Positions 13,871 to 19,576 of a DNA stretch of 64,000 bases are shown here, piece after piece; within the stretch, counting starts at the first letter, position 1, and every line of letters begins with the position of its first letter. The translations under genes were made by a program, and so were the position numbers. Source of the DNA: Glycera tridactyla (taxonomy: Eukaryota); NCBI GenBank assembly GCA_965644265.1, contig OZ286464.1, positions 33,232,001 to 33,296,000 on the forward strand, written 5' to 3'. The notes beneath the pieces were generated by a model. That model ran no database searches, was not told the DNA's origin, and was given only the letters and a program-made list of their open reading frames with translations.

Positions 13871-15899
13871 TGTTCGCCTCAGGCATTGCGGATAATTGGT
13901 TGTCTGCATCTTGAATGGTCAGCCTATGCGATGGCCTTGTTTTAATCAATACCATGAGTCCAGATCTCCTAAATTACTTTGTGCTCCACGTGTTTCCCCC
14001 GTAGCTGTTTTCATGGAATATTTCGTGATTCTTCCAATGTTTCGAATATAGTAGTGGGGGGGGGGGGGGGGTCGAGTCAGTGGGGAGGTTGTAGTAAAGA
14101 TAGACTTTCATGATCCACAGTTTCAAAAGAGGAGTATACATACAGCATACGTCCAATAGATCATTGCAAACCATCCATCTGACCATATCGGACATAAACT
14201 GTACGTAAATTTGTAAAGTCTATCCAAGTGGTCACTTTCGACAAGTACTGGTGGATCGTTGAGTAATTTTGAGCATTTGGGTCGTGTGTAACGTACAGAA
14301 CTGAACACTCAACCGGGATCGTCGAAATCGTTGACAGGAGGTCAGGTGCATATCTGACAGGTGCCTATGAACAGTGATAAATCAGTACTTCAGCGGAGTT
14401 TTTAATCAACTGAGATCAACGCTGATCCTTTTCAGAGTGTAATCCTTCCAATATGACAATGGAATAAAACCAGTCATCCAACAGGCTTGTAGGAGTATTC
14501 CCTCCTCTTCCTTAAGATGCAACCTTGGCAAGAAGTTTATATCTGATTAAATCCCCATTATCAAGAACAGCAGGAAGCAATGTTTCAGACGAACCGGGCT
14601 TTTGTCCCATTTATCCCAATATCAAAATAAATGGCATTGCTCCTGTGGATTGATGTTCACAAAAATATACGTTGTACTAAAAGATGTTATAAGCGTGATC
14701 AGCATTACATGTTGAATCCCATTGTTTGCCAAGCTCTAATGAAATCATTAATATATAAAGTCATCTCAATTCTCACACAGGGAACTCAAATGTTGGTTCG
14801 AAAGTATAAGAGACACATAAATAGAGTTGTAGATACATATTTCAATTTGTATATGGTTCACATAATATAATGTAAATGACAGATCATAAATTGAACGAGA
14901 CAATATTGAAAATCACAGTATCAGATTGACAAAAAGTCAGTTATACTCATAATTCAATGAATAAATTCAATTTGAATATTCAGATCTGAACCAGATAACA
15001 CGTATGACAAGTATGGAAGAGTTCATAATACATAAATACCAGTGAATATCAGAATAGGACAACTCATGATATACAAGTACACAGGCTATTCATGATTGAC
15101 CGACAATGTGAGGTACCTCATTGCATAACACAATTAAAACCCCCAAAGAGTCTGGTGTTTGAGCTCAAACCTTACTGAATGTGATATCTATCTGTCTTGC
15201 TCCATCGTTGACTTGGGCGCTTGTCGAGTGGCCACTGTAGCTAGCTGGAAATAAAACAAAGTCAAAGACACTGTGTCTAGATAGTTAGTGCACACTTGGT
15301 ATATAACTTGAAAGTTTGGGTTAAAGACCCACGATGAAGAATCGACTTTAAAAGTTAATATAATGGTGGCCACCTGGTTGCACATGTGAAGATGAACTGT
15401 TGATATATATTCCATGTTCAGCTAGTATATGATAGCAGCGTATACTAGAACGCGTATCGTAGATGGAAGAAGGAGTATAGAGGAGTTTTCCTTCCTCTTG
15501 AGAAACGTATCCTATCTCATATTGAAGTACGATCGAATCTCACCGTATGAAGTGACTATTTCCCACACATCTCATATGGGAATAATGTGTCAAACACACT
15601 ATAGGTACAGCTGGCGGGATATAGGCATATCTGCCTACAACAGCTGCATTCCGTATGCCAGGATGGCGACGTGGTAATGAAGTGGCCTGAAGAGTACGCA
15701 CCTCTCCAGTTACGACATCTCAGACGTGCTGGTCGCTGCAAGAAGATAAAAAGTCTCCTACCAACTATCCAAGCGTCATAAAGAAAAGTTTTGATTCACA
15801 AAGTATCTGTAAACAACTCTAAGTTTTTGATTTGTTTGTTGCATGCACTTAGTTACTTGCAGTTGCCAGATCTATCATAGTGGGAAGGTAGGATCCCAC

Positions 15900-15905
15900 T
15901 TTATT
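15900..15905 (-). terminator. Candidate LTR polyadenylation signal AATAAA
   Basis: TTTATT on plus strand, ~480 bp downstream (element sense) of a TATAAA; positional inference only. Confidence 0.3.
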
Positions 15906-16378
15906 CCCCACTAACTAAATAGCATAAGAATTTAAACTACAAGTTACCATTGATCAAGTTACTAGAAATATTTCAACCTTCAGTTGAAGAGATTGTCAAA
16001 AGACAATCAGCAAGCATCACCGTTGAAAAGAAATCTCAATGCACTTAAGCCATTATCAACGGAGCAGGCACTGAGCCAACTAAGTTAATCAATCAATGAA
16101 CAAGGCATTAAAATATCATCAGCTGTATCAGAGAGAGCTAAGTTCACGTAGAATGAACTAGAAAGGTGGACACACCAAGTCCTCTCTCAGTCAGCTGGGA
16201 TCATGATGCAGCAGCAATACAGCGAAAAAGTTGAAGTCCAACTGTCTGCATGAAAAGAGCAAGCACGCTTCCAAAATCAAAGATAGTTAAGTCCTCACCA
16301 AATCAAATTCAAAAATTCGAATAAATTCTAAGTTAAGAATCCAAGATAGAGAAATGAATCTATTCAGAACAGGTGGTC

Positions 16379-16384
16379 TTTATA
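16379..16384 (-). promoter_or_regulatory. Candidate LTR TATA box
   Basis: TATAAAG on the element sense strand within a CTAAGT motif cluster; inference. Confidence 0.3.
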
Positions 16385-19300
16385 GACAGAGTCAGATGAA
16401 GTTACCACTCGCCGAAGCAAGGGGCAAGATCTGAAATCAACCCAAGTTCCCCCTCCCTGTCGCTGTGAGTATAACCTACCTAACATAGACCGGAACGCAC
16501 TAAGTCACAACTGCAGCAGCAGCGGGGTCTAAGTTCCGATCTACCAAGTCCGTGCTAAGTTCGAATTCTAAAATTCACCAAATCCCAATTTCAACTCATT
16601 TCAAGCCATTTGGTAATGTCTAAAGTCGAAATTAGTCATGTAATTCAAGAAATATAAGAGCGAAATGCATTTACATGCAGTCCCATATGTCACAAACCTC
16701 AAACACAAATGTGCTTACGGGGTAAGACCATGAGTAAGTCCGGTAAGCACCGTGCTAAGTTTTAGTCAACGCGCTAAGTTCGCGCTGTCAAATCACAAAT
16801 AGCGATAAAGCCAGCACACTGAAGTTCTACAAAAGCAATCCGCACATAACGAGAAACAATTCCGATCAATTCTAAAGCATCTAAAAGCTTTTATCCAAAG
16901 TAAAAAGTTTCAAACTTGTTGAAAAGTGTAAAGTGGATCGGAAGCTCAAAGTGAGGCTCATACATGTGGCGGATGGAAATCCAGAATGGCGGATTGTTTA
17001 CATCTGACCGATCAGTCAGAAACAGCTGTTCATTCCATAACGCTCAGAAAGTATCTCGGAGCTCAAATGACAGCGCATAGCAGCTTATTCATTACGAGAG
17101 CTAAACAATCACAAATACAGCAGTTTGAAGGTCTAAAATCAATTCAAAAGAATTATCCTTCGAAAATACAGTCCAACGTGATGTCGCAGATCATATAGAT
17201 CAAAAATCTCAAAGTGGTCACATGTGACAGGTTGGTCTCAATACGGAGGTTCCCTAGAAAAAGTAGGTCACGGGACTTAGGGACATTACACAAGACTAAG
17301 CAAGCCTAGGACGGGTCCGTGCTTAGGATACACGGCGCTTAGGACAGAAATCAAGCTTATCAGAGTGGACCTTCTCCGAAAAAGTCTAAATTCAGGCCGG
17401 GCACATGAATCACAAGCAGGCACTACGAGTAAACAAACAAGCCTCGGTTTGTCGTCTCCCCTACGTGTCTATTCCAAGTACGAGTACCAAAAACATTCCA
17501 CCGGATCTTCAAATGACAAATACGACAGTTGTGGTCATGGAAATTGAAATACCATCAAGCTAGCATTTGATCGTTAAGCAAACAAGCTTTTGCAAGCCGA
17601 AATAGATTCAGAAAACCAAAATTGAAGCATATTTGATTGGTCGATTAATCGATTAATCGATCCGTTAACCGTCAAAGAATTTCAGATTTTCACACCATAT
17701 GAACGACGTTGGATTATTACCTTCTCAAAACAAGCTGTTTCCATGAAAATACGATTTTCAATAAAGAATTTCACTCGGAAAAGAAAAGATTGACTGGATC
17801 TCTATTCATATGATCAGGGAAGCTAAAGAAAACAGATCAGCTGTGTGTGCTATTTACGAAACCAGCAGCAAAGTTCACCTAAGCGGTGACCTGGTTAGTA
17901 CACATGACAGCGAGCTGCCATTGTCATACCGAGATAGACATGTTCATTTCAACTCAGCCTACATGGACTGGTAGAGTAGCCGGGTCTATAAACACACAGA
18001 TTCAGAGAGAAAAGACACAGTCGTCTCTGCTGATATTCCAACTGAAAATGATCTTACAGAAATATTCCTTTCACTTACTTATTCCTATAAGAAAATCCTG
18101 TGAATATAATTGAATTTTGAATGATTCAATCACCTCATTCACACAGAAATCCGATATATTACTTAAATGATCAAAATCTGATCCGTAAGAGCTATATTGA
18201 AACGTGTTAGCAGTTCATACCCACAGCTTCTCTCACACGGAGGATTCAGTGAGTCCAAGCTATAAATACAATTTTACAAATTCCTGCATAGCCCTGTTCC
18301 ACCCATACTGGCGTACTGGACCGGGAACGATACTGGAGGAACACTGCCTAGTTCCACGCAGTTCCATTTGTTCCAAATTCACCGGAACAGCACAGGGAAT
18401 CAACAGAAATAGCTAGAACTACCGATATTCACGAGAATTATCAACTAGTTGTTTGGATCAGGACGGCATTTATGGAACAAAATCCTATCATCCAAAATGA
18501 TCCAAAAACATCCAAAGCATGCAAAATTTAGATTTTGACCACGTATGCTCGAAAGACGGTACATTCAATACAAAACACGGAAGATCCGATGACATGAAAT
18601 GGCATGATACTAAAAATGGCCATTGGGGAAAATATAGATATTGACTCCTAACAAAGCCTCCTAAAAGGATCCTAAAACAGTTCTAAATCTCATAAAAACT
18701 CACTCGATGTTGTTGAGCTCACTATGGTGTATCGGAGTCCATCATATTAGTCCAAGGCAGTGATCCTGGAGAAGCAAGATATTCTCTGCTCCCGACTCCG
18801 TCAGCTCCGGTGCGTACTCTTCAGGACAGAATTTCCAAGTGCCAGAACTCTTGTCTGGAACACTTTTATGTAACCGTCCTGAAGAGCCAGCAAAGAGCGG
18901 GAAAAAGGAGCGGGAAGAGCGATGTCAAGCTCCCCAAGTCAGCTACCTTGAATGTATTCGCTCGAGACTTTTCTAGATCTATTCCAGAAGATTTTCTGAG
19001 AAATCATGTACATTCCATGTACATTACGGATCACTTTCCTCCTGCGCGACTCCGAGCTCCTCCTGCTCAGGGAGTCGTTCACTATACTATGTGATCAACA
19101 CTATCGGCAAAAATCCGTCCGATAATCGGCCTATACCTCAGACTAACAATTTTGCCTCAAAAGATACATTTCCCATCCTCGGGATATCTTTAGCCCTACT
19201 ACAGATACGTATCCTATGTCCATTATTCACAGAGATATCGCAGTTTCACTGTTTCACCCTAGAAACACTGCAAGCAGGGCACCCACCGAGAACGGCGAGT

Positions 19301-19576
19301 CCACCGCATGTAACTCGAACTCTAGTTGCCACACCAACAACCAGATAGGTGAAACAACTAATATTAGAAAACTAACAGGATCACAACTGTTTTTCAACTA
19401 ATAGAAGTGAAAATATCTCATGCTTCTGGAGTAGCAAGTAATTTATACCCTCCTGGTAGCGTAAAACTAGTGCCGCGGGCCTCAAAAGAGGAATTCCGCG
19501 AATTCCGCTACCAGAAATCCCTATATTGTTCATGTTTTTCTAACAAACGTCACGTCGTCAAAAACGTGGCGTTACA

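What the first reader, a model, noticed from the sequence alone, without database searches (positions are those of the whole stretch)
14434..19576. Giant 5.1-kb LTR on an animal-type Ty3/Gypsy element
Seen: the repeat starts TGTAAC (element sense) at both 19576 and 31556. The flank AGAG at 31557-31560 recurs at 14434-14437 directly before TGTAAT, giving TGTAA...TTACA termini and a 5,139-bp LTR with no long ORF. Established: animal Gypsy LTRs are usually hundreds of bp to about 2 kb; multi-kb LTRs are mainly known from plant Ogre/Tat elements. Inference: an undescribed giant-LTR lineage whose full length would exceed 16 kb. Only 2.6 kb is confirmed by a second copy, so the left half rests on the 9-bp TSD-plus-terminus match.
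Basis: partly seen in the sequence, partly recalled or inferred. Interest (0 to 1): 0.75.

Follow-up and report, generated by a model that had tools for sequence, protein, structure and literature searches.

The report
Broken retrotransposon with very long LTR
This is a decayed jumping gene whose end repeat is certainly over 2.6 kb and probably about 5 kb long, several times the usual size in animals, so related elements may be missed by standard searches.

Summary
A Ty3/Gypsy element lies on the minus strand at 14438-31556, with AGAG on both sides and TGTAA...TTACA ends. The second LTR copy matches only 16986-19576 (0.73% substitutions). It stops there because a deletion runs from inside that LTR into the protease, removing the LTR end, primer site, gag and the catalytic DTG. 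So 16986 is not an LTR end, and the LTR exceeds 2,591 bp. Strand-specific composition and a 17-nt inverted match extend it to about 15686 (at least 3.9 kb). The last 1.25 kb has no compositional support and rests on the 9-bp match (chance 0.02-0.14 within 5 kb). I put the end at 14438 at about 0.9. I put a native 5.1-kb LTR free of nested DNA at about 0.65, since the element already carries two nested inserts. The RT falls in a long-stemmed clade of 14 unnamed proteins. Multi-kb animal LTRs have precedent (Osvaldo to 2.1 kb, Burro; Woot 3.6 kb recalled), so this is an extreme variant, not a new kind. Other genomic copies, the empty site and Repbase/Dfam could not be checked.

The parts
14434..14437 (.). 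Left copy of the 4-bp target-site duplication (AGAG)
   Evidence: Identical to 31557-31560; a 5-bp duplication is not met
14438..19576 (-). 3' LTR as proposed, 5,139 bp, TGTAA...TTACA, non-coding
   Evidence: support differs by segment, see next three rows
14438..15685 (-). Distal 1.25 kb of the 3' LTR (putative U5 side); rests on the terminus plus duplication only; holds an AT-rich block at about 14620-15070
   Evidence: No compositional likeness to the confirmed half; no nested-element signature above chance
15686..16985 (-). Single-copy but compositionally continuous part of the 3' LTR; sense TATAAA at 16384-16379, only sense AATAAA at 15905-15900
   Evidence: Markov log-odds reached by 0 of 218 and 0 of 226 control windows; CTAAG 9 times against about 1.2 expected; motif positions
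15686..15702 (.). 17-nt exact inverted match to 18809-18825, linking the single-copy and confirmed halves
   Evidence: 0 of 1000 Markov simulations reach 17; 21 control windows reach 13 at most; E 0.039 window-wide
16986..19576 (-). Part of the 3' LTR confirmed by the second copy (2,591 bp; putative U3)
   Evidence: 19 substitutions in 2,587 aligned columns plus one 19-bp indel
19577..19600 (-). Position of the polypurine tract; atypical, with a purine run of only about 5 nt
   Evidence: Sequence read directly
19856..24927 (-). Broken pol: protease C-terminal part, linker, RT, RNase H, integrase. Stops near 24175, 24148 and 20398; the RT frame closes at about 23165, where the RNase H match continues in another frame
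   Evidence: Pfam RVT_1, RT_RNaseH, rve, Integrase_H2C2; six-frame reading; tblastn with relatives
22217..22981 (.). 765-bp insert of unknown origin inside RNase H
   Evidence: Relatives align on both sides, residues 695 and 693 of P0121; no notable match elsewhere in the window
24928..24932 (.). Deletion breakpoint joining the 5' LTR to mid-protease; LTR end, primer site, gag and catalytic DTG are missing
   Evidence: 14 of 18 query proteins align up to 24919-24925; in 10 of 15 relatives checked the catalytic D lies 18-19 residues upstream of the first aligned residue; no primer site
24928..27222 (-). 5' LTR, inner surviving piece
   Evidence: 98.5% to 16986-19261
27223..31238 (-). 4,016-bp nested DNA transposon fragment in the 5' LTR (789-codon frame 27476-29845; CTA on both sides; assembly gap at about 29936-30149); Academ-like label is recalled
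   Evidence: 9 relatives at 25-44%, one with DUF6589; junctions
31239..31556 (-). 5' LTR, outer 318 bp with the TGTAAC start
   Evidence: 98.4% to 19259-19576
31557..31560 (.). Right copy of the target-site duplication (AGAG)

Best explanation
This is one fairly recent (0.73% LTR divergence), now dead insertion of a Ty3/Gypsy retrotransposon whose native LTR is about 5.1 kb. It moved in the ordinary way. Transcription started in the 5' LTR; reverse transcription with two strand transfers rebuilt both LTRs; the DDE integrase recognised the TGTAA...TTACA ends and made a 4-bp staggered cut, giving the AGAG duplication. After insertion the copy took a DNA transposon in the 5' LTR, a 765-bp insert in RNase H, point lesions in pol, and a deletion from the middle of the 5' LTR to the protease. 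That deletion is why only half of the LTR has a second copy. The likely layout (inferred from motifs only) is U3 about 3.2 kb (19576 to about 16355), a TATA box at 16384, and either R about 0.5 kb with U5 about 1.4 kb (AATAAA at 15905) or a long R with a non-canonical signal near the end. The extra length is non-coding and most likely regulatory. A 17-nt complement between the 5' and 3' parts of the genomic RNA might pair its ends and help strand transfer across so long a repeat; this last step is speculative (about 0.15). Shown: anatomy, deletion, LTR over 2.59 kb. Strongly inferred: continuity to 15686. Inferred: end at 14438, U3/R/U5 borders, full length over 16 kb (2 x 5,139 + about 4.4 kb pol + 0.28 kb, plus an unseen leader and gag).
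For: The second copy ends inside the protease, 18-19 residues after the catalytic D of 10 of 15 relatives, with no CA end or primer site, so the true end lies left of 16986. 14434 is the only AGAG+TG in 13558-16985 and the only AGAG+TGTAA in the window; 7 of 256 possible 4-mers precede a TGTAA in the 5 kb left of the break. 15686-16985 scores as LTR-like and strand-specifically, reached by 0 of 218 and 0 of 226 controls. 17-nt inverted match, 0 of 1000 simulations. AT skew is positive in all ten 500-bp bins from 14500 to 19499. No TIR, direct-repeat, poly(A) or solo-LTR signature above chance in the left half. None of 8 tRNA primer sites matches the left half with up to 2 mismatches.
Against: 14438-15437 is not like the confirmed half in k-mers (48 of 77 and 42 of 77 controls score as high), nor is 15088-15685 (154 and 137 of 226). 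An order-1 change point falls at about 15690-15740, not 14438, and the method missed most known junctions, so it is weak either way. Allowing other 9-mers raises the chance match to 0.07-0.14. The element already has 2 inserts in about 9.8 kb of checkable sequence. An 18-nt exact match also links the left half to unrelated DNA at 53219, and the 17-nt duplex is no stronger than the best control (-42.1 against -41.8 kcal/mol). The last 150 nt do not fold better than shuffles (z -1.14). The polypurine tract is weak. No second copy of 14438-16985 was available.
Confidence: 0.65

Rival explanations
1. The end at 14438 is real, but the left half holds a nested insertion, so the native LTR is shorter: about 4.5 kb if 14488-15081 is a nested solo LTR, and not under about 3.9 kb.
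For: Two other nested inserts in this element, one without a clear signature. 14488-15081 has TGTA...TACA ends, a 6-bp flanking repeat, GC 0.32, and plus-strand TATAAA (14754) and AATAAA (14960); its right end lies inside the interval for the edge of the AT-rich block. 14438-15685 is unlike the confirmed LTR.
Against: A candidate this good arises in 26-29% of 1000 simulations, in 7 of 29 real windows, and in the confirmed half itself. Its left end (14488) is outside the interval for the AT-rich block (14533-14833). TIR and direct-repeat counts are at chance (46 against 39.5; 9 against 8.1).
Confidence: 0.22
2. The 3' end of the element was also lost. The LTR runs to about 15.7 kb (at least 3.9 kb seen), 14438-15685 is host DNA, and AGAG+TGTAA is chance.
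For: Order-1 change point at about 15690-15740; no compositional support left of it; the element has had a large deletion already; chance match up to 0.14.
Against: The exact match expected from an intact end is present and unique in the window (chance 0.02-0.03 in 5 kb). Order-0 change points fall at 14366-14530 in three of five intervals, with wide ranges that include 14438.
Confidence: 0.1
3. The LTR is only about 2.6 kb, or the left half is the leader of a second, tandem element.
For: Only 16986-19576 has a second copy.
Against: No CA terminus or AGAG at 16986; the other copy is cut there by a deletion into pol; composition is continuous across 16986; no primer site and no tblastn hit from 240 fetched Gypsy proteins in 12001-19600.
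Confidence: 0.03

Closest known systems
Ty3/Gypsy (Metaviridae) LTR retrotransposons of marine invertebrates and fish, including the PNMA-type-gag group (for example XP_030847917.1 of Strongylocentrotus purpuratus)
   Same: PR-linker-RT-RH-IN order, no env, TG...CA ends, 4-bp duplication; 38% identity to XP_030847917.1 over the RNase H-integrase frame.
   Different: The RT sits on a long stem apart from all named hits, in a clade with 14 unnamed proteins (SH-aLRT 100, quick tree). Surveyed LTRs in such hosts are far shorter: 103-1,468 bp in Lamellibrachia with a 7-kb cap (PMC8220671, passages); at most about 1.8 kb in the supplement rows of PMC13524379 that I saw (first parts of two files).
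Osvaldo lineage (Osvaldo, Ulysses, Woot)
   Same: Animal Gypsy elements marked by long LTRs: 997-2,055 bp in the text and 2,137 bp in the table for Culex, mostly with 4-bp duplications (PMC3286476, passages). Woot of Tribolium has 3.6-kb LTRs (recalled, from no call).
   Different: The LTR here is 1.4 to 2.5 times longer. Osvaldo's tRNA-Lys primer site cannot be tested because the site is deleted. No Osvaldo reference was in my tree.
Burro / GYPSM1 of the planarian Schmidtea mediterranea
   Same: Animal Gypsy with multi-kb LTRs: internal region up to 25 kb, total over 30 kb (PMC6431247, section 7 read). LTRs of about 5 kb are recalled; the original paper was not held.
   Different: Burro has a huge polyprotein with env-like and accessory domains. 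Here the surviving pol is ordinary in size (relatives mostly 1,450-1,650 aa), and only 280 bp lie between pol and the LTR.
Plant Ogre/Tat elements
   Same: LTRs of 1.9-6.5 kb (PMC6431247); 5.1 kb is inside that range.
   Different: No extra ORFs are seen in the surviving part, and the nearest named proteins for the RNase H-integrase frame are from animals. The likeness is in size only.

Membership tests
Ty3/Gypsy LTR retrotransposon | pol order PR-RT-RH-IN | tested here: met
   Pfam and tblastn order on the minus strand
Ty3/Gypsy LTR retrotransposon | Two direct LTRs | tested here: met
   2,587 aligned columns, 19 substitutions; the 5' copy is truncated and interrupted
Ty3/Gypsy LTR retrotransposon | TG...CA termini and 4-6 bp target duplication | tested here: met
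   TGTAA...TTACA with AGAG; the left end is probabilistic
Ty3/Gypsy LTR retrotransposon | gag and primer-binding site | tested here: inconclusive
   Absent in this copy because of the deletion at 24928
Ty3/Gypsy LTR retrotransposon | Polypurine tract before the 3' LTR | tested here: inconclusive
   Only a short purine run
Errantivirus (env-bearing Gypsy) | env ORF between pol and the 3' LTR | tested here: not met
   pol homology ends at 19859 and the LTR starts at 19576
Osvaldo lineage | Long LTR (1 kb or more) | tested here: met
   At least 2,591 bp
Osvaldo lineage | RT groups with Osvaldo/Ulysses/Woot | not testable with these tools
   No reference sequences among the 120 proteins in the tree
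Osvaldo lineage | tRNA-Lys primer site | not testable with these tools
   Region deleted in this copy
Burro | Internal region up to 25 kb with a giant multidomain polyprotein | tested here: not met
   Closest whole pol relatives are 1,451-1,644 aa with core domains only, one partial at 1,109 aa; the gag side is deleted here and could not be seen
Plant Ogre/Tat | Extra ORFs and plant Tat-type pol | tested here: not met
   No extra ORF in the surviving internal part; nearest named hits of the RNase H-integrase frame are from animals
Named mollusc/annelid Gypsy clades (MolGy, PolGy, Mag A/B/C) | RT/RNase H placement in a named clade | tested here: inconclusive
   A 5-residue motif of this clade was not found in the supplements of three surveys, which may hold no protein sequences; 1 file of the first and 3 of the second were not searched

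The most novel reading that the evidence does not exclude
A distinct, so far unnamed animal Gypsy clade whose members carry 4.5-5 kb non-coding LTRs around an ordinary gag-pol core (over 16 kb in all). It would be at the top of the known animal range, missed by surveys that cap LTR length, and would use a 17-nt pairing between the two ends of its RNA to manage strand transfer.
Probability: 0.25. Interest if true: 0.62.

Novelty: new variant of a known kind. Interest (0 to 1): 0.42.

Why it matters
If a 5-kb LTR is native, about two thirds of the element is non-coding repeat, and each solo LTR would leave 5 kb of promoter-bearing DNA in the host genome. Some surveys cannot see such elements: the mollusc survey capped LTRs at 1,500 bp and LTR spacing at 11 kb (PMC6238403, passages), and the errantivirus survey looked only 3-5 kb beyond the ORFs with a bit-score ceiling (PMC13524379, passages). 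The view that animal LTRs are short may therefore be partly a search artefact, which is directly testable. It does not imply a new mechanism, and this copy is dead.

Tried and rejected
Coding role for the LTR: the 125-aa frame gave 0 hits among 1.84 billion representatives, no usable Atlas hit and no Pfam family. Six further short frames in or at the edge of the left half had no Pfam family. 240 fetched proteins gave no tblastn hit in 12001-19600. The ChAPs hit (E 0.015, below cut-off) on 19368-19727 was set aside as noise. Structured RNA: no Rfam match and no tRNA in the window; the terminal 150 nt fold with z -1.14, while the first 150 nt of U3 reach z -2.21, one of five stretches tried. Change-point mapping: put the boundary near 14438 with order 0 and near 15700 with order 1, but missed most control junctions by hundreds of bases, so it was not relied on. 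Empty site: the two flanks show no likeness to each other or to a shared repeat in the window. RNA end-pairing: the duplex energy was not exceptional. The careful tree did not finish and the quick tree is reported. The host was not identified; it is inferred to be an animal from named relatives (sea urchin, snail, fish at 32-42%; bivalve at 43% for the transposase). Ten literature searches found no paper describing this clade or stating an animal Gypsy LTR of 5 kb. The library lacks most subscription papers and Repbase Reports, so this is weak evidence.
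Full report
Observation. Self-comparison shows two pieces of a second copy: 16986-19261 with 24928-27222 (98.5%) and 19259-19576 with 31239-31556 (98.4%). Piecewise alignment gives 19 substitutions in 2,587 columns (0.73%) and one 19-bp indel. AGAG+TGTAA occurs once in the window. The expected number is 0.012 in 2.55 kb and 0.023 in 5 kb, or a chance of 0.07 and 0.14 if any of five comparable 9-mers is allowed. The longest stop-free frame in 14438-19576 is 125 aa and has no homologue.

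Why the second copy stops at 16986. At 24928 the 5' LTR runs straight into protease codons. Of 18 query proteins, 14 align up to 24919-24925 and one to 24886. In 10 of 15 relatives checked, the catalytic D lies 18-19 residues before the first aligned residue; two lack that N-terminus, two gave a spurious first motif and one aligns later. There is no LTR terminus or primer site at the junction. A deletion therefore removed the rest of the 5' LTR, the primer site, gag and the start of the protease. This is the main result: 16986 is a breakpoint in the other copy, not an LTR end, so the LTR is longer than 2,591 bp.

How far the LTR extends. A Markov model trained on the confirmed half scores the whole left half above 160 of 160 control windows at order 1, and is matched by 3 and 4 of 160 at orders 2 and 3; the reverse strand scores near background (controls overlap and were part of the background model). 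By segment, 15686-16385 and 16386-16985 are reached by 0 of 218 and 0 of 226 controls, 14488-15081 by 22 and 17 of 226, and 15088-15685 by 154 and 137 of 226. Strand-merged k-mers agree: 15438-16985 is LTR-like and 14438-15437 is not. CTAAG occurs 9 times in 15819-16778 against about 1.2 expected. A 17-nt exact inverted match joins 15686-15702 to 18809-18825; 0 of 1000 simulations reach 17, and 21 control windows reach 13 at most. Against this, an 18-nt match ties 16113-16130 to unrelated DNA at 53219, and the duplex energy is not exceptional. The LTR is thus well supported to 15686 (3,891 bp). The last 1.25 kb rests on the terminus and the duplication. My judgement, weighing an intact end against a chance match, is about 0.9 for 14438.

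Nested DNA as the main rival. The element has two inserts in about 9.8 kb of checkable sequence, so another in the unconfirmed part is plausible. Scans gave chance-level counts: 46 TIR candidates against 39.5 simulated, 9 repeated 10-mers against 8.1, and no A or T run of 7. The best solo-LTR-like candidate, 14488-15081, overlaps an AT-rich block, but its score is reached in 26-29% of simulations and 7 of 29 real windows. If it were real, the LTR would be 4,539 bp, still very long. No primer site for 8 tRNAs lies in the left half, and 240 fetched proteins give no hit there, so it is not the leader or gag of a tandem copy.

The element and its lineage. pol has RT, RNase H and integrase in Gypsy order, ends at about 19859 and leaves no room for env. 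It is broken by stops near 24175, 24148 and 20398, a frame change after RT, and a 765-bp insert in RNase H. A tree of the RT with all 120 listed hits (the best 120 of 2,060) puts it with 14 unnamed proteins, 55-80% identical, on a long stem (SH-aLRT 100; quick search, midpoint root, no reference clades). Named hits are from sea urchin, snail, fish, a frog and one bacterial bin, at 32-42%. Some clade members come from contigs of 10.4-14.5 kb, which would fit a long element but proves nothing. The host is inferred to be an animal, probably a marine invertebrate; it was not identified.

Mechanism. Integration and LTR regeneration follow from established Ty3/Gypsy biology, and the 5-bp inverted ends and 4-bp duplication are the integrase's footprint. 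From motifs alone, a sense TATAAA at 16384 suggests a U3 of about 3.2 kb, and the single sense AATAAA at 15905 suggests a short R and a 1.4-kb U5, or else a long R. PMC3601003 (passages) warns that these borders need RNA data and that antisense transcription is common; there are plus-strand TATAAA boxes at 17987 and 18261. The extra length is non-coding, and I take it to be regulatory. The 17-nt complement would sit near the two ends of the genomic RNA and could pair them; this is speculative. A full length over 16 kb follows if gag and leader add more than about 1 kb to the 15.0 kb summed from two LTRs, a pol of P0121's size and the 3' spacer.

Comparison with what is known. Training sets of animal Gypsy LTRs average 174-695 bp (PMC3601003, passages). 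Long ones exist: Culex Osvaldo elements reach 2.1 kb (PMC3286476, passages), and Burro exceeds 30 kb with at most 25 kb internal, while Ogre LTRs are 1.9-6.5 kb (PMC6431247, section 7). Woot (3.6 kb) and a 5-kb figure for Burro are recalled and come from no call. The mollusc survey capped LTRs at 1.5 kb (PMC6238403, passages). PMC8556966, PMC5006616, PMC2664473, PMC2397513, PMC11410931 and PMC4455052 were seen as passages and added nothing on this point. Of the 34-part supplement table of PMC13524379 I saw part 1 only; the rest may hold longer LTRs. Ten searches found no description of this clade; Repbase and Dfam could not be searched.

Verdict. A real, dead Ty3/Gypsy copy with an LTR certainly over 2.6 kb, very probably over 3.9 kb and probably 5.1 kb. 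It is at or near the top of the animal range known to me and belongs to a deep clade with no named member among my hits. It works like any Gypsy element, rests on one locus, and has precedents for large LTRs. New variant of a known kind; interest 0.42.

Noticed in passing
window 27223-31238: DNA transposon fragment nested in the 5' LTR. It starts TAGT on the minus strand, has CTA on both sides, and its other end cuts inside the transposase coding region with no inverted repeat: a one-ended or later-trimmed insertion. Nine relatives, one with DUF6589; the Academ label is recalled.
   Followed up: partly
window 22217-22981: 765-bp GC-richer insert in RNase H with no obvious terminal repeats, no Pfam hit for two short frames in or across it, and no notable match in the window.
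   Followed up: partly
window 32991-33997: Candidate 1,007-bp solo LTR of another family: 8-bp perfect inverted ends (TGTTGACA...TGTCAACA) and a 5-bp duplication; the best score among 29 windows scanned.
   Followed up: partly
window 15686-15702, 18809-18825, 18878-18886: The 17-nt inverted match has a 9-nt third copy at 18878 on the plus strand.
   Followed up: partly
window 17987 and 18261: Two plus-strand (antisense) TATAAA boxes in the confirmed LTR half; a 41-codon ATG frame at about 18519 follows the second (read).
   Followed up: no
window 15608-17843: Six CAGCTG (E-box-like) sites in 2.2 kb of the LTR, against 0.16 per kb in the background.
   Followed up: no
window 19577-19600: The polypurine tract is unusually weak and includes a self-complementary C/G run.
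   Followed up: no
window 16113-16130 and 53219-53236: 18-nt exact match between the left half and DNA outside the element, E 0.011.
   Followed up: partly
window 27160-27179: About 19 bp present in the 5' LTR copy but not in the 3' copy.
   Followed up: no
window 56518-57821 and 63285-64000: Tandem arrays with 62-bp (about 21 copies) and 66-bp (about 11 copies, cut by the window end) units.
   Followed up: no
window 12558-12725, 40017-40352, 53668-54006, 54721-54903: A dispersed repeat family with several copies at 70-80% identity.
   Followed up: no
proteins P0121-P0135, P0138: Members of the clade share a long acidic, low-complexity tail after the integrase, ending in a short basic motif, as does the window's 19856-20395 frame.
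   Followed up: no
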